64,000 nucleotides of DNA from Eledone cirrhosa (GCA_964016885.1 OZ024741.1:343604001-343668000), one strand, 5' to 3'; shown: positions 365 through 63,445, numbered from the stretch's first letter. The notes: generated by a model not told the origin, from the sequence alone. Numbers and translations: made by a program.

Positions 365-470
365 AACGAAGGAATTGTGGTAAGGAACCAGATGGACCAT
401 AACGCACCAAAGTACTCAATACTTAGGGTAGTAGTGTAGGTAATAGTGCCGTCGGGTTCTACTTGTTCCT
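365..470 (-). mobile_element. Minimal PLE stub: ~26-bp inverted arm plus 3' tail, in (TA)n
   Basis: Reverse complement is homologous to 60914-60940 joined to the tail 61022-61100; (TA)n on both sides. Confidence 0.7.
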
Positions 471-540
471 ATATATATATATATATATATATATATATAT
501 ATATATATATATATATATATATATATATATATATATATAT

Positions 541-1708
541 ACTTGGAAATTTAGTAAAATCGAATTTCTGGGGGTTTACAAGAAAATTCGGCCTACTTAT
601 ATGAAATGATGAGTTAGAAAAGCACTCGATAAGTTGGGTCCTTAGAGTAATAACATACGTTTAAATAGCTTGACAAATCGAACATTGTGGCAAAATCTAA
701 CACACAATGATATACCAAAGTAACGATAGAACTAACAGGTTGAATATATATATATATATATATATCATAACTCATGTCCTTAGAATTATTAGATAAAATA
801 TATACCATTTCCATAGAGCCACAACGTGACCAGTTGCAACATATATATCTATGACTTTATGTATATGTAAACCTTTATATATATATATATGTGTATATAT
901 ATATATATATATATATATATATATATATATATATATATATATATATAAATTAATAAAATAATGAATAAACAAAGAAACGGTTCCTTATATTAAAAATATT
1001 CATCATTTTACGATCGTTTCTAGGATATATATGTGTTAGTGTTGGTATGCATATTCTATAGATCTATGTAAAATATTTATACAAACTACCAGAGGGAATA
1101 TACATACCTACACATATATATGCTGTCTTCAGAAATAATGATATTTGTTTATTGAAAAAAACAAAGATTGAATACAATAGGTCTGTTTGGGAACAGGTTT
1201 TGAATTGACCAATAGAAAGATAGTGAAGGTCAAGATAGTAATATAGTGGTAGAAGAACCTTAAATTATGGGTAGAGGAAGGTAGATTTCAGTTTTGGATG
1301 GAAAAGAATATTATGAATGAAAGATTATTTTAGGGATGAAATAGGTTGTATGCTAACCTCAGAAATAATTATATTTGTTCATTGAATAAAACCAACAAAG
1401 ATCTAATATAGTCTGTCTGTTTGGTAAGAGGTTTAGAATTAACCAATAGAAAGTTAATAATTGGCCAAATGGTAAAATAGTAGTAATTGAAGCTTATTTT
1501 AGGGGTAGATTAAGGCAGATTTCAGTTTTGAATGGAGTGTGAAGAATGAGAAGGTTATTTTAGGGGTGAAAATAGGTCAGGTCAGTAAAAGGTATACGAG
1601 CAGTTGCTGTTATAAAATAGTAATAACATACGTTTAAATAGATTGACAAATCGAACATTGTGGCAAAATCTAACACAATAATATACCAAAGTAACGATAG
1701 AACTAACG
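541..1708 (-). mobile_element. Non-coding PLE pseudo-LTR element with hammerhead and internal direct repeats
   Basis: Tail motif TCGAGTGCTTT at 619-629(-); HHR at 1001-1140(-); direct repeats 647-737/1620-1708 and ~1130-1340/~1361-1575; (TA)n flanks. Confidence 0.6.
1001..1140 (-). ncRNA. Type I hammerhead ribozyme with ~105-nt stem II
   Basis: Minus strand reads CATTATTT-CTGAAGA-[long hairpin]-GAAA-CGATCG-TA-AAATGATG; 8-bp stem I and palindromic stem III. Confidence 0.7.
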
Positions 1709-2130
1709 ATATATATATATATATATATATCTGTGTGTGTGAATGTATGTGTGTGTACGTGCGTGTCTATAAAGATTTATGTTCTGCATGTGGGAAAGCA
1801 AGTATAGTACAAATGGTAAAACAAGATTTGGTAAAACATCTCGTGGGAAAGAGTGAGAAAATATGTAAAACAACCCAAAAGGGTATATGCTTATATTGTT
1901 CGACCATGAAAATTTAGCTGGACAATGAAATTCAGTGTGTACAAAATCATAATAAATTAGGTCTATTTATATAGAGCGCTTGTACTTGCAGTTGATAATC
2001 ATGTTAAACACGCACGCATACACACAGATACCACACACACACACATATATATATATATATATGTATGTATATATATATGTATATATATATATATATATAT
2101 ATATATATATATATATATATATATAAAATA

Positions 2131-2690
2131 ATAAAATAACAGGAGGCTGGACTGGTGTAATTCCTTAAAAGGTTTATTATACTATGATCATTTCAGTGAA
2201 CGGGTTCAGTATGAATCCGGTGACATCATCAGGTATTCGAAATATAACAAAGGAATATAATAGACACAATCCATGGGGCTGAAAATCAGAGACATGTGGG
2301 CGGCCGAACATTTAGCAGTTCTAGCCCGGTCAGCCGCCCTCGACCGGGCTAGAACTGCTAAATGTTCGGCCACCCTCATGTCTCTGATTTTCAGCCCCAT
2401 GGATTGTGTCTATTATATTCCTTTGTTATATTTCGAATACCTGATGATGTCACCGGATTCATACTGAACCCGTTCACTGAAATGATCATAGTATAATAAA
2501 CCTTTTAAGGAATTACACCAGTCCAGCCTCCTGTTATTTTATAATAATTAACTCCGTACTCGTACCACCAGCTACACAAGCGAAGACGGGTGAGTTGCAT
2601 TACGTCGAGTACTCTCCCTAATATTACATCAAGGTTGACCATACGGAATGACCAGTTCTATCCAGTGGTGAACCAACAAACCTAAATAAA
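2131..2690 (+). mobile_element. Non-autonomous PLE fold-back element: ~410-bp palindrome plus ~150-nt tail
   Basis: Near-perfect inverted repeat 2131-2331/2342-2542 with an HHR in each arm; tail carries TCGAGTACTCT at 2605; (TA)n flanks. Confidence 0.8.
2437..2494 (+). ncRNA. Minimal type I hammerhead ribozyme
   Basis: ATAC-CTGATGA-stem II-GAAA-TGATCA-TA-GTAT; palindromic stem III ATGATCAT; mirror copy at ~2179-2236(-). Confidence 0.75.
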
Positions 2691-2722
2691 TATATGTATA
2701 TATATATATATATATATATAAT

Positions 2723-3030
2723 AGAAAGGACGATATGTTATATCTTCATTACTTTTAATGACGACTAGCCCGACTCTGCAATCAAAAGCTCGTCCGATCA
2801 CTGCTGTGGAAATGTCAGAACCGGGCTAGATCGATACAGATCGAATTTTGAGCTGATCAATACCAAAATATGCGTCACTACTCAATAAACATAATGAAGA
2901 TATAACATATTGTCCTTTTTATTATTACTACAATCTACCATGTTCTACACCTCTATACTTACTGGAAACTACACATCGAGTGCTCACTCTGGTCTGGTAA
3001 ACCTAGAGTAACTGGACGTTACAATCCCGA
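2723..3030 (+). mobile_element. Short PLE-derived element with ~27-bp inverted arm and tail
   Basis: Inverted pair AAAGGACGATATGTTATATCTTCATTA / TAATGAAGATATAACATATTGTCCTTT; tail TCGAGTGCTC at 2976; homologous to 23761-24010(-). Confidence 0.6.
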
Positions 3031-3110
3031 TATATATATAGATATATATATATATATGTGTGTGTGTGTGTGTGTGTGTGTGTGTGTGTGTGTGTGTGTG
3101 TGTGTACATA

Positions 3111-60913: not shown

Positions 60914-61103
60914 TAGGAAAAAGTATGACCCCGACGGCAGAGCTCAAGCCGTTTCGACGGCTATTTCTGGAAATAGCCGTCGAAACGGCTTGAGCTCTGC
61001 CGTCGGGGTCATACTTTTTCCTATTACCCACTCTACTACCCTAAGTATTGATTACTCTGGTGCGTTATGGTCCATCTGGTTCCTTACCACAATTTCTTTG
61101 TTT
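60914..61103 (+). mobile_element. Short PLE fold-back element: 110-bp palindrome plus tail
   Basis: Near-perfect palindrome 60914-61024; tail homologous to 365-445(-). Confidence 0.75.
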
Positions 61104-61129
61104 TATATATATATATATATATATATGTA

Positions 61130-61310
61130 TGTATGTAAAAGGTAAACAGAAATAGTAACACAATCGGTACAGTATATGGAACGGATATATTCGGTTAACG
61201 CTTGAAATAGCAGGAAGAGGGTCTAAACGTTTCGGACGCTAGTTCTTCATCAGACGAAAGAATGAGAAATTAGAAAGATTGCAGGGACTGGTGGGGCGGA
61301 ATCGGAATAC
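61130..61310 (-). mobile_element. Solo hammerhead-bearing element
   Basis: Minus strand CTGATGA-AGAACTAGCGTCC-GAAA-CG-TT at 61222-61256. Confidence 0.65.
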
Positions 61311-62419
61311 ACACACACACGCACACAAACACACACACACACACACACACACACACACACACACACACACACACACACACACACACACATATATATATAT
61401 ATATATATATATATATTATATATATATGAATTATATTTGGGAAACGCAAATAAGATAAAAGATATTTACCTATTTACTTAGAGGGTCCGTAATGCAACGC
61501 TTCATTGAGTAAAACTCAGCATTGAATGCTATGATAACTTCAACTTGCCAGGGAACATTCTCAAACAAGAAAGGATTTGACTGAGTTATTCGCTATCAGC
61601 GATAATTTCAAATCGAAGAATTATCACGTGATTTGCGTACTAACTTACGGTCGCTATATTTAGTAGCCCTTTCACTTGCTATTTCCCACATACTACTACT
61701 CCTCTGTAGGACTCTAATTACGTGATAATTCTCCCATTCGAAATTATTGCAGGTAGCGAATTCTTTCTTTTTTGAAAACGTTCAACCATAAACTTCCCTA
61801 AACTAACCTCAAAGACAAAATATTCTCTAAAATATTTAGTCTTGTGGTGTGATGTCGTGCTCCAGAGAGCTTTCATTAGAAAAGCCGTACAAAACACCAT
61901 GCAAAACACCAAGAAAAAAACTATTACTGAATAAACGAAATTGTTAAAGGATGAATACTACATAGATATGATATCGAAAAGCAATATGAAATTATGCACA
62001 TGCTTCAAATCACATTATAGACAAATACATATTTAATTACAGATAAACAAGGATGTAAATTCATAAATAAGGTGAAATTATGCAAATGGAAATATGTAAA
62101 AATAAAACTCACTGGAACATCATTCGTATAAAGATTGGCTTGCAATCTAACAAGTGTGAAGAATAAGAAATAAGAAAGAAAGAAACAAACAAAGAGGGAA
62201 GGAAAGAAGGTTAGAGCATCCTGTCAAAGCCGCACCCCATCCTCTCACTCATAGCCTTATCGCATACAACAAAGCTCAGAACACCATCCAATTTGGTCAA
62301 CCGTGTAGGCACCGCGCGCAGACACACGCTACACACACACACACACACACACACACACACACACACACACACATATATATATATACACACACACACACAT
62401 ATATATATATATATATATA

Positions 62420-62720
62420 TTTAAAAGAATAGAGGTGTAACACACGAGTGTGATATATTAGTAAAAGGAAGAGAAAATGGTGACAAATTTAATAATTTTG
62501 AGATAGAGCGCCCGTGATGTTTGCTCAGATTAGAGCAAACATCACGGGCGCTCTATCTCAAAATTATTTTTGAAAAGCTTAAGAAATGCGCACCGGTAAA
62601 AGCTTAAAACTAAAACTGAATACTAACCAATACATATTACTAATTTTACTTATTCCTAATTACACAATTTTTCACTGGGAAAAATTTGTCACCATTTTCT
62701 TTTCCTTTTACTAATATATA
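62420..62720 (-). mobile_element. Nested inverted-repeat element in (TA)n
   Basis: Outer inverted repeat 62453-62491/62682-62720; inner 36-bp-arm hairpin 62491-62568; short unpaired tail at left. Confidence 0.55.
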
Positions 62721-62745
62721 TATATATATATATATATATATATAT

Positions 62746-63445
62746 ATATTTATAAGCCGTTTGGAAGCCTCGACAATGCAAATGGGTAAATCTCCGGGTA
62801 ACAAGGTCCGGTGGTGGAGAGAGAGATATGTAAGTGGGTGTACGTTGAGATGCGTGGTGTGTATAAGATGTGTGAGATGTGTAGAATGAAGGGAAGAGTA
62901 AAAGAATAAAAAGAATAATAACAACACAAGAGAGAGAGTTACCTTGGGAGAGATTTAATAGTCCCTATATATTTCGGATTCACATCCATCAACTGGGGTT
63001 TTTTCGGGGTGGGGGAAAAGGTTGTCTGTCGGACAACTCGGCACGCGTCTTTCGCTGTCTGTTGATTTGAATATCTCAAATCAACAGACAGCGAAAGACG
63101 CGTTCCGAGTTGTCCGACAGACAACCTTTTCCCCCACCCCGAAAAAACCCCAGTTGATGGATGTGAATCCGAAATATATAGGGACTATTAAATCTCTCCC
63201 AAGGTAACTCTCTCTCTTGTGTTGTTATTATTATATTTATTCTTTTACTCTTCCCTTCATTCTACACATCTCACACATCTTATAAACACCACGCATCTCA
63301 ACGTACACCCACCTACATATCTCTCTCTCCACCACCGGACCTTGTTACCCGGAGATTTACCCATTTGCATTGTCGAGGCTTCCAAACGACTTATAAATAT
63401 TTACTTATTGTTCCACAATGCTTCAAGCAAACTTCAATACTCTCA
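62746..63445 (+). mobile_element. PLE-type fold-back element: ~655-bp palindrome plus ~45-nt tail
   Basis: Centre ~63073 with a 5-nt loop; HHR-like CCC-CAGTTGA-T-GGATGTGAATCC-GAAA-TATA-TA-GGG at 63148-63183. Confidence 0.75.

What the first reader, a model, noticed from the sequence alone, without database searches (positions are those of the whole stretch)
365..63445. Community of tiny non-coding hammerhead fold-back elements in (TA)n, probably mobilised by PLEs
Seen: about 15 elements of 100-1200 bp with no ORF share some combination of inverted arm, HHR and tail between microsatellites (365, 541, 2131, 2723, 3111, 18508, 23761, 25233, 29381, 51650, 52350, 57870, 58096, 60914, 61130, 62746). 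Several occur twice in the window. Inference: they are either extreme 5' truncations of many PLE families or true MITE-like non-autonomous families (retrozyme-like) using Hydra-clade RT/EN in trans. Read-through transcripts would form long dsRNA hairpins bounded by ribozymes.
Basis: partly seen in the sequence, partly recalled or inferred. Interest (0 to 1): 0.7.

Follow-up and report, generated by a model that had tools for sequence, protein, structure and literature searches.

The report
Truncated Penelope ends reveal start-site hairpin
These small fold-back pieces between microsatellites are likely clipped, mostly dead 3′ ends of Penelope-like (Hydra-clade) retrotransposons rather than a new mobile family, but they carry a conserved bulged hairpin, found in several animals, that likely tells the element's reverse transcriptase where to start copying.

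Summary
All 16 sites exist and abut microsatellites, but 'hammerhead fold-back' fits few. Five have an intact hammerhead core, eight a decayed or partial one, three none; nine have inverted arms; only 2131 is fully intact. Their anatomy (arm, hammerhead, one-sided tail, (TA)n) is that of five ORF-bearing Penelope-like elements (PLEs) in the same window, four of them Hydra-type. Three of four sister pairs differ in centre or 5′ end. In contigs from other animals, two such fold-backs are 95–98% identical to 3′ ends of ORF-bearing Hydra copies. Hammerheads lie on opposite strands, so no retrozyme-type circle can form. Best reading: extreme 5′-truncation/inversion products, a known PLE behaviour. 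New here: Hydra tails carry a covarying bulged hairpin (RCTC–stem–2-nt bulge–GAGY-RCTY), present twice before the start codon, and insertion ends lie 3–9 nt 5′ of either copy. It likely positions the two reverse-transcription starts, which would explain the tail and why solo fragments die. One unlisted element (24228–25087) is an ORF-less partial tandem with two same-strand hammerheads, the only retrozyme-like candidate.

The parts
366..469 (-). Tail with hairpin (437-410) joined to a 24-bp inverted arm end; no hammerhead; sister of 60915-61103 with a different centre
542..743 (-). Tail with hairpin (648-620) plus 91 bp shared (96%) with 1619-1707; no hammerhead, no internal inverted repeat
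2126..2686 (+). Complete tiny fold-back: 209-bp arms (2128-2545, 97%), Hydra-type hammerheads at 2232(-) and 2441(+), 141-bp tail with hairpin 2551-2614
2721..3029 (+). Asymmetric fold-back, 41-bp arms, decayed hammerhead (G8C), tail with only the 3' half of the hairpin intact; sister of 23760-24016
3106..3265 (+). About 30-bp arms, truncated before the hammerhead; tail hairpin 3208-3232 (top hit of the blind model)
5488..10617 (-). PLE-A: 5'-truncated Hydra-type RT/GIY-YIG copy plus inverted copy; hammerheads 5589(-)/10414(+); tail 10516-10617 with hairpin 10521-10564
10809..18419 (-). PLE-B: near full-length Hydra element (ORF 14565-12352; DKT and CxCX5C motifs; one in-frame stop near the N-terminus) with 5' pLTR and inverted copy; hammerheads 10907(-), 14802(-), 18233(+); tail 18332-18419
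14673..14696 (-). Hairpin 1 of the PLE-B 5' UTR, about 6 nt after the arm end (start site 1)
14584..14605 (-). Hairpin 2 of the PLE-B 5' UTR, 7-9 nt after the tail end (start site 2) and 18 nt before the ATG
18508..18650 (-). Single 5'-truncated copy: intact hammerhead 18639(-), decayed tail hairpin (tail 70% like that of 52350)
18856..22101 (-). PLE-C: 5'-truncated Hydra copy with inverted pLTR, hammerhead core variant U4A, tail hairpin 22019-22067
23760..24016 (-). Single copy, hammerhead with G8C, tail hairpin 23848-23800 with one mismatch
24228..25087 (-).
25233..25598 (.). Tailless perfect palindrome (183-bp arms, 99%), hammerheads 25329(-)/25502(+); 83-87% identical to the PLE-B end
29383..30670 (-). 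Tail, intact hammerhead core 29507(-), 25-bp inversion, then a decayed Hydra RT remnant (30433-30570); likely an old 1.3-kb truncated coding copy
51650..52254 (-). Old fold-back, 82-bp arms (76%), hammerhead with G8A at 51816(-); no clear tail hairpin
52350..52600 (+). Old fold-back, 92-bp arms (80%), decayed hammerheads, tail hairpin 52541-52564 (1-nt bulge)
55987..57737 (-). PLE-D: shorter truncated sister of PLE-C (93%) with inverted piece and tail
57869..58023 (+). Solo hammerhead-bearing segment (core broken by a 3-nt deletion), no arms, no Hydra hairpin; same ends as 61131-61308
58094..58221 (-). Tail plus hammerhead cut at the core; short sister of 29383
59227..60897 (-). PLE-E: truncated PLE of another type (GIY-YIG remnant) with 440-bp inverted arms, hammerheads 59502(-)/60698(+), tail without the hairpin
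60915..61103 (+). 54-bp arms (98%) whose centre lies in what looks like hammerhead stem II (3' half of the ribozyme only); tail hairpin 61030-61057
61131..61308 (-). Solo segment with intact minimal hammerhead 61253(-); no arms, no Hydra hairpin
62750..63444 (+). 324-bp arms (98%), hammerhead-shaped motif with two core substitutions in both arms (62995-/63151+), 48-bp tail without the hairpin

Best explanation
The tiny elements are likely the 3′-terminal stubs of many Penelope-like retrotransposon families, mostly Hydra clade, left by target-primed reverse transcription into (TA)n that stopped after tens to hundreds of bases, often with an inverted second copy. Shown: same end anatomy as the ORF-bearing copies; a covarying bulged hairpin in the tail; two such hairpins before the start codon; every measured insertion end lies 3-9 nt 5' of a hairpin. 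Inferred: the RT-endonuclease binds the RNA hairpin and starts cDNA a few bases upstream of it, so the hairpin used is not copied. A start at hairpin 1 gives the tailless arm end; a start at hairpin 2 gives the tail, which carries hairpin 1. When both target nicks are extended and the two short cDNAs join by microhomology, at a self-complementary site or by snap-back, the product is a head-to-head fold-back with a tail on one side. Each round loses one signal, so a tailed stub could at most give one tailless daughter; only tandem or circular templates would be self-renewing. The hammerhead is a passenger in these stubs.
For: Anatomy shared with PLE-A/B/C/D. Length series within one family: PLE-B end present as 3.0 kb, 0.73 kb, 183 bp x2 (25233) and 46 bp (31284) copies with the same terminus; 29381 (1.3 kb, RT remnant) versus 58096 (128 bp). 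Different centres or 5' ends in 3 of 4 pairs. Other animals: two fold-backs of about 285 and 410 bp in L006 are 95-98% identical to the ends of ORF-bearing L015 and L010. Hairpin in the window: upper stem 34 of 40 cells paired at a 2-nt bulge versus 11-17 in other registers, 1 of 20000 partner permutations (register chosen after the fact among five); 91% of cells paired, 0 of 500 shuffles on three of five measures. Hairpin in independent loci with the register fixed beforehand: 34 of 42 versus 13-17, 0 of 20000; descriptor score >=7.5, 8 hits versus 0.93 shuffled. A model trained only on those loci ranks nine tail or 5' UTR hairpins as its top nine window hits (score >=18: 11 observed versus 0.88 shuffled). 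Two hairpins precede the ATG in 5 of 5 loci that reach the start codon and in PLE-B; spacing 62-91 nt, PLE-B spacing 91 versus tail 89. End-to-hairpin gaps: 3-7 nt in 7 window elements, 4-6 nt in L004, L005, L006. Literature: the tail is the stretch between two RT start sites, the RNA needed extends 3' of the start, and hammerhead cleavage is dispensable in vitro (PMC11167929); opposite-strand hammerheads 100-700 bp apart were ascribed to truncated PLEs (PMC4209133).
Against: Only 1 of 16 listed elements (25233) has a recognisable ORF-bearing parent inside the window, so truncation is inferred for most. 57870/61130 share both ends, as a unit-length family would. Five of 16 lack the hairpin (25233, 51650, 57870, 61130, 62746) and six carry it only at noise level or by alignment (52350, 2723, 18508, 23761, 29381, 58096); PLE-C/D hairpins are not in the blind model's top 40. 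Two of five measures were not significant (94/500, 411/500). The hairpin was not evident in published Hydra-1_Obim (by eye). End positions are uncertain by 1-2 nt because of AT microhomology. No binding or priming assay exists for a Hydra protein; how the two cDNAs join is not shown.
Confidence: 0.75

Rival explanations
1. The listed elements are true non-autonomous families (MITE-like or retrozyme-like) copied as whole fold-back units by Hydra RT/EN in trans.
For: 57870/61130 share both ends at 85% identity with different flanks; 11 of 16 keep at least a trace of hairpin 1, a possible cis signal; most parents are absent from the window; PLE cis sequences can mobilise other DNA in trans (PMC3846280); non-autonomous PLEs exist (MRC1).
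Against: 3 of 4 pairs differ in centre or 5' end; none of the 16 has two same-strand hammerheads; the sense hammerhead is predicted to be sequestered; the signal lies outside the copied part, so it would be lost each round; ORF-bearing parents were found for both fold-backs examined in L006.
Confidence: 0.12
2. The elements are truncation products, but the hairpin acts on DNA (endonuclease recognition or resolution of the intermediate, or a promoter) or in translation, not as an RNA anchor for RT.
For: The tail has been ascribed to endonuclease-mediated resolution (PMC8557442) and was needed for EN recognition of plasmid DNA in D. virilis Penelope (as cited in PMC11167929); GAGY-RCTY is itself nearly palindromic; hairpin 2 lies 6-21 nt before the ATG.
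Against: A covarying upper stem with G-U pairs and a one-sided bulge suits single-stranded RNA; ends keep a fixed 5' offset from both hairpins; in Poseidon the ends are RT start sites in an RNA stem loop.
Confidence: 0.25
3. The palindromes are assembly or library fold-back artefacts, or chance hairpins in AT-rich DNA.
For: Several arms are 97-99% identical and lie in microsatellites, where assembly is poor.
Against: Arm identity ranges down to 76-81%; tails are one-sided and start at family-fixed points; the same structures occur in unrelated assemblies; hammerheads and hairpins far exceed shuffles.
Confidence: 0.03

Closest known systems
Hydra-clade Penelope-like elements (Craig et al. 2021, PMC8557442)
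   Same: C-terminal GIY-YIG, DKT and CxCX5C motifs, (TA)n targets, hammerhead with U after A9 and U before GAAA, 5' truncation, inverted 5'-truncated copy, one-sided tail.
   Different: Here the stubs are so short that only 3' UTR remains; tails are 60-140 bp rather than 30-40 bp; the tandem bulged hairpin is not mentioned in the passages, section and supplement parts read ('hairpin' 0 occurrences in the main text), though it is visible in their consensus sequences.
Opposite-strand dual minimal hammerheads of Schistosoma mansoni (Cervera and de la Pena 2014, PMC4209133)
   Same: Pairs of minimal hammerheads 100-700 bp apart on opposite strands and dispersed single motifs, read as truncated PLEs; U3-A8 core covariation as in 24228-25087.
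   Different: Different PLE clade; no tail hairpin or (TA)n context described in the parts read.
Poseidon element PAc of Anolis (Frangieh et al. 2024, PMC11167929)
   Same: Two internal RT start sites delimit the tail; both target strands are cut and extended; RNA 3' of the start is required; hammerhead cleavage is dispensable.
   Different: PAc starts lie inside the ORF in an AC-rich stem loop; the binding motif was not defined. In Hydra elements the ends lie in the 5' UTR, each just 5' of a repeated, sequence-conserved hairpin.
Non-LTR retrozymes (PMC7761336; bioRxiv 10.64898/2026.07.22.740005)
   Same: ORF-less, type I hammerheads, derived from PLE pLTRs; dispersed monomers resemble 57870/61130; 24228-25087 fits the two-hammerhead layout.
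   Different: The 16 listed elements have no same-strand tandem hammerheads and cannot release a unit-length RNA.
MITEs (recalled, no call)
   Same: Short, ORF-less, bounded by inverted repeats, near AT-rich targets.
   Different: Arms are two copies of one retroelement end, of variable length, with a one-sided tail; no fixed unit, no link to a DDE transposase.

Membership tests
Hydra-clade PLE (ORF-bearing copies, PLE-B as type) | DKT in place of DKG | tested here: met
   DKT at residue 80 of the 699-aa frame
Hydra-clade PLE (ORF-bearing copies, PLE-B as type) | CxCX5C linker | tested here: met
   motif at residue 558
Hydra-clade PLE (ORF-bearing copies, PLE-B as type) | C-terminal GIY-YIG endonuclease | tested here: met
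   PF01541 E=2.3e-4 (below the gathering score) on the PLE-A C-terminal frame; 0 Pfam hits on PLE-B itself, which is 42% identical to that frame
Hydra-clade PLE (ORF-bearing copies, PLE-B as type) | N-terminal RWK motif | tested here: inconclusive
   PLE-B has an in-frame stop at this position; the 29 homologues aligned have RWK
Hydra-clade PLE (ORF-bearing copies, PLE-B as type) | Canonical hammerhead in the pLTR and (TA)n insertion | tested here: met
Hydra-clade PLE (ORF-bearing copies, PLE-B as type) | Generally under 3 kb | tested here: not met
   PLE-B unit about 3.9 kb owing to a 1.5-kb 3' UTR; described as typical, not defining
Hydra-clade PLE (ORF-bearing copies, PLE-B as type) | RT phylogeny inside the Hydra clade; lack of the CCHH motif | not tested
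   no tree with named references was built
PLE 5'-truncation/inversion product (tiny elements) | Head-to-head inverted copy of the element's 3' end | tested here: met
   9 of 16 have arms; hammerheads point outward in 2131, 25233, 62746
PLE 5'-truncation/inversion product (tiny elements) | Identity to the 3' end of an ORF-bearing PLE | tested here: inconclusive
   1 of 16 in the window (25233), plus 29381 with its own RT remnant; 2 of 2 fold-backs examined in L006; rest of the genome not available
PLE 5'-truncation/inversion product (tiny elements) | Fixed 3' ends, variable 5' ends | tested here: met
   3 of 4 pairs; 7 PLE-B-type termini at one position
Non-LTR retrozyme (16 listed elements) | Two or more same-strand type I hammerheads in tandem units | tested here: not met
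   0 of 16
Non-LTR retrozyme (24228-25087) | Two same-strand type I hammerheads in tandem units, no ORF | tested here: met
   cleavage sites 593 nt apart; U3-A8 hits 2 observed versus 0.06 per shuffled window; longest ATG frame 84 aa; no Hydra remnant
Non-LTR retrozyme (24228-25087) | Self-cleavage, circular RNA, dispersed unit-length copies | not testable with these tools
   needs RNA data and the genome
MITE | Fixed-length, high-copy unit with short terminal inverted repeats | tested here: not met
   arms of 25-324 bp, one-sided tails, sisters of unequal structure; copy number untested
MITE | Target-site duplication and matching DDE transposase ends | not testable with these tools
   a duplication cannot be resolved inside (TA)n

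The most novel reading that the evidence does not exclude
Hydra-clade Penelope elements carry a tandem pair of conserved bulged RNA hairpins that anchor the reverse transcriptase and set cDNA start 3-9 nt upstream. The PLE 'tail' is simply the spacing of the two hairpins, the signal is never copied by the start that uses it, and so only tandem or circular templates persist. 24228-25087 is then a genuine non-autonomous Hydra mini-element that kept both hairpins and two ribozymes.
Probability: 0.45. Interest if true: 0.72.

Novelty: new variant of a known kind. Interest (0 to 1): 0.5.

Why it matters
The fold-back stubs themselves are ordinary PLE debris that repeat annotators can mislabel as MITEs, SINEs or microRNA precursors (Rfam's best sub-threshold hits here are miRNA families). 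The hairpin matters more. What defines the PLE tail and the RT start site, and why PLEs need partial tandems, are open questions, and the only in vitro PLE system did not define its binding motif. A 25-50 nt structure with a fixed offset to insertion ends gives a direct mutational test, a rule for telling dead stubs from self-renewing non-autonomous elements, a marker for classifying ORF-less Hydra fragments, and a handle on template choice in the sister group of telomerase.

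Tried and rejected
Rfam at gathering score found only a tRNA-like hit; at E<=10 the 150 listed matches were almost all microRNA models matching microsatellites or palindromes, and 95 lower matches were not shown; the PLE-B 5' UTR matched no family. A strict hammerhead descriptor without the extra U-U pair missed every listed element (searches found only 25233 or only ORF-bearing copies) and was relaxed after seeing the sequences. The first tail motif count (6 exact versus 0.2 shuffled) was circular because the motif was drawn from the test elements; it was replaced by a profile from three ORF-bearing copies (summed score 93.5 versus null mean 25.0, 0 of 1000, 12 families) and by a model trained on other animals' loci. 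MAFFT misaligned the hairpins of the external loci, so no covariance model was built. MFE folding of whole tails did not give one common structure. I first read 29543-30670 as a THAP/DNA-transposon relic; the HMM scan showed a Hydra RT remnant instead. 62746's look-alike motif lies in the arm and lacks the 5' strand, so it was not counted. 57870/61130 as two arms of one old insertion was rejected: their hammerheads point inward. The orientation of 948-1708 relative to 541 stayed unresolved. Pfam gave no family for 7 of 10 frames. No viral or metagenome contigs and no host genome were searched, so copy numbers remain unknown.

Full report
Setting. The window is AT-rich animal DNA with 146 tandem-repeat rows and several retroelement relics. 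The only named homologue of its main PLE protein is from Argonauta hians, and a Hydra family is published for Octopus bimaculoides; an octopod source is my inference. Only the window was available, so no genome-wide copy count could be made.

1. Observation. All 16 coordinates mark real segments next to microsatellites. Nine have inverted arms of 25 bp or more. Five have an exact hammerhead core (2131, 18508, 25233, 29381, 61130), eight a decayed, substituted or half motif that is weak on its own, three none. Only 2131 has long arms, intact ribozymes and a tail. Four sister pairs exist. 29381 is not ORF-free: a profile built from the 59 homologues finds an RT remnant at 30433-30570(-), 13.3 bits against a control maximum of 4.8.

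2. What they are. The window holds five ORF-bearing PLE insertions: 5488-10617, 10809-18419, 18856-22101, 55987-57737 (Hydra type by profile; DKT and CxCX5C checked in PLE-B) and 59227-60897 (another type). Each shows a main copy, an inverted truncated copy and a tail on one side; the hammerheads are exact in A, B and E and carry U4A in C and D. The tiny elements repeat this layout at small scale. These PLEs have 1.0-1.5 kb 3' UTRs, so any stub under 1 kb lacks an ORF. The PLE-B terminus occurs 7 times at the same base in copies from 3 kb to 46 bp, among them 25233. Sisters differ inside: 365 has arms of 24 and about 2 bp where 60914 has 54 and 54; 2723 is inverted while 23761 is not; 58096 stops at the ribozyme core while 29381 runs on for 1.3 kb. 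Only 57870/61130 share both ends. A scan of prokaryotic genome assemblies returned 17 loci on evidently eukaryote-derived contigs that encode Hydra-type proteins. There the same community appears: L006 holds two fold-backs of about 285 and 410 bp that are 95-98% identical to the 3' ends of ORF-bearing copies in L015 and L010 of the same assembly. In the window, though, only 1 of 16 has a visible parent.

3. Ribozymes. Three of the five intact motifs (2131, 18508, 29381) have U after A9 and U before GAAA, as most published Hydra hammerheads do. In fold-backs the two copies are on opposite strands. A read-through RNA therefore has one sense ribozyme, predicted to be paired along its whole length with the other arm (65/65, 66/67, 48/48 nt; 81-106 kcal/mol to free it). 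Core substitutions shared by both arms or both sisters (62746, 2723/23761, PLE-C/D) predate insertion, which fits the report that cleavage is dispensable in vitro. A dsRNA hairpin transcript remains possible; transcription is untested.

4. The tail hairpin. Tails of ORF-bearing and tiny elements share RCTC, an upper stem, a variable loop, a 2-nt pyrimidine-rich bulge, then GAGY-RCTY. A profile from three ORF-bearing tails scores 12 tiny families at 93.5 against a null mean of 25.0 (0 of 1000); 7 of the 12 have p<0.03, five do not (the 25-85 nt search window was set after seeing the data). Anchoring on the two sequence boxes only, the upper stem pairs in 34 of 40 cells at bulge 2 versus 11-17 in other registers (1 of 20000 permutations; 3 of 13 rows dropped as sisters); the pair-count tool gives 91% paired and 11 double changes (0 of 500), with two of five measures not significant. 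The external loci are an independent test: the unchanged descriptor gives 8 hits at score >=7.5 versus 0.93 shuffled, and 14 distinct hairpins downstream of 32 hammerhead matches pair in 34 of 42 cells at the preset register (0 of 20000; two rows had the wrong 5' box under the pairing-blind rule and were kept). A model trained on 17 external hairpins ranks as its top nine window hits 3111, 2131, PLE-A, 365, 60914, PLE-B (three sites) and 541; 52350, 2723, 18508, 23761 and 24645 score within noise; 29381, 58096 and PLE-C/D are outside the top 40. By eye the structure is also in the published consensus sequences of Hydra-2_Amil, Hydra-1_Ajap (twice) and Hydra-2_Ajap, weakly in Hydra-1_Crog and Hydra-1_Amil, and not evidently in Hydra-1_Obim: 3 clear, 2 weak, 1 absent of 6.

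5. Geometry. PLE-B has two hairpins between pLTR and ATG, 91 nt apart; its tail is 89 nt. The arm end lies about 6 nt 5' of hairpin 1 and the tail end 7-9 nt 5' of hairpin 2. All 5 external loci that reach the start codon have two hairpins 62-71 nt apart, 6-21 nt before an ATG; a sixth, L006, is truncated there. In L004 and L005 tailed copies end 4-5 nt before hairpin 2; in L006 tailless ends lie 5-6 nt before hairpin 1; seven window elements give 3-7 nt.

6. Mechanism. Known: a Poseidon PLE protein cuts and extends both target strands, starts at two internal RNA sites that bound the tail, and needs RNA 3' of the start; inverted 5'-truncated copies, tails and palindromic junctions are standard. 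Inferred: in Hydra elements the protein binds a hairpin and starts 3-9 nt upstream; starts at hairpins 1 and 2 from the two nicks give tailless and tailed ends; early termination and joining give fold-backs. Equal arms suggest joining at a self-complementary site or snap-back; the centre of 60914 falls in an apparent ribozyme stem II, so equal centres could recur without unit replication. Because the hairpin in use is not copied, solo stubs would be dead ends after at most one further round. I put the truncation origin at about 0.8 and the RT-anchor role at about 0.55; a DNA-level or translational role is the main rival.

7. It has two same-strand hammerheads with the U3-A8 core known from Schistosoma PLEs, five-pair stem I and palindromic stem III (2 hits versus 0.06 per shuffled window), and hairpin-like sites 9 nt after the first repeat and 165 nt further on, each weak alone. 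It is either a non-autonomous Hydra-like element or one copy that lost its ORF.

8. Literature seen. PMC8557442: abstract, passages, section 11, supplement parts 1, 2, 52, 53 of 59 and two searches; most supplementary figures unread. PMC11167929: parts 1-2 of 4; its supplementary figures of the stem loop were not seen and may bear on novelty. PMC4209133: parts 1-2 of 4. bioRxiv 10.64898/2026.07.22.740005: parts 1-3 of 5; its supplements could not be seen. PMC3846280, PMC13282606, PMC6765202, PMC7761336: passages. I found no description of the Hydra hairpin in searches 51 (0 papers), 55, 65, 73, 81 or in Rfam; subscription journals and Repbase notes are outside these searches. MITE features are recalled.

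9. Verdict. The finding as stated is mostly known PLE truncation debris, over-described as ribozyme fold-backs. It exposes an apparently undescribed cis hairpin with a fixed offset to insertion ends, which makes the origin of the PLE tail testable. New variant of a known kind; interest 0.5.

Noticed in passing
window 24228-25087: ORF-less partial tandem (593-bp unit) with two same-strand U3-A8 hammerheads and two weak Hydra-like hairpins; the only retrozyme-like layout in the window.
   Followed up: partly
   Followed up: partly
window 10636-10693 and 18651-18704: The same short hairpin followed by (TC)n(TA)n lies in direct orientation on both sides of PLE-B and the 18508 element: a long target duplication or the stub of another repeat.
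   Followed up: no
window 1-62 and 31284-31329: Two more stubs of the PLE-B/25233 terminus (one cut by the window edge, one 46 bp).
   Followed up: yes
window 18924, 56053, 62995/63151, 2853/23934: Hammerhead core substitutions shared by both arms or both sister copies, so present in the template at insertion.
   Followed up: partly
window 5754-6184, 19008-19274, 1119-1577: Imperfect 130-230 bp tandem duplications (about 77%) inside the long 3' UTRs of PLE-A and PLE-C and in the unassigned segment 948-1708.
   Followed up: no
window 63567-63991: Decayed Hydra-type thumb/endonuclease remnant on the minus strand right of the last (TA)n.
   Followed up: no
window 43000-47817: Array of about 260-600 bp repeats (89-96%) separated by (TACA)n, among LINE remnants.
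   Followed up: no
window 26136-27202 and 54790-55029, 3997-4110: A short dispersed repeat in four or more copies, two of them forming an inverted pair about 800 bp apart, with a weak hammerhead-like site at 26053.
   Followed up: no
window 32511-39086: Two LINE relics with reverse transcriptase (Pfam RVT_1 at 33560-34234 and 37069-38181).
   Followed up: no
L001-L017: Animal Hydra-type retrotransposons with (TA)n flanks sit on contigs binned into bacterial genome assemblies, likely host contamination; L010 and L015 also hold solo minimal-hammerhead segments between (TA)n like 57870/61130.
   Followed up: partly
window 51271-51343: Weak tRNA-like Rfam match (30.4 bits, minus strand) next to the fold-back at 51403.
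   Followed up: no
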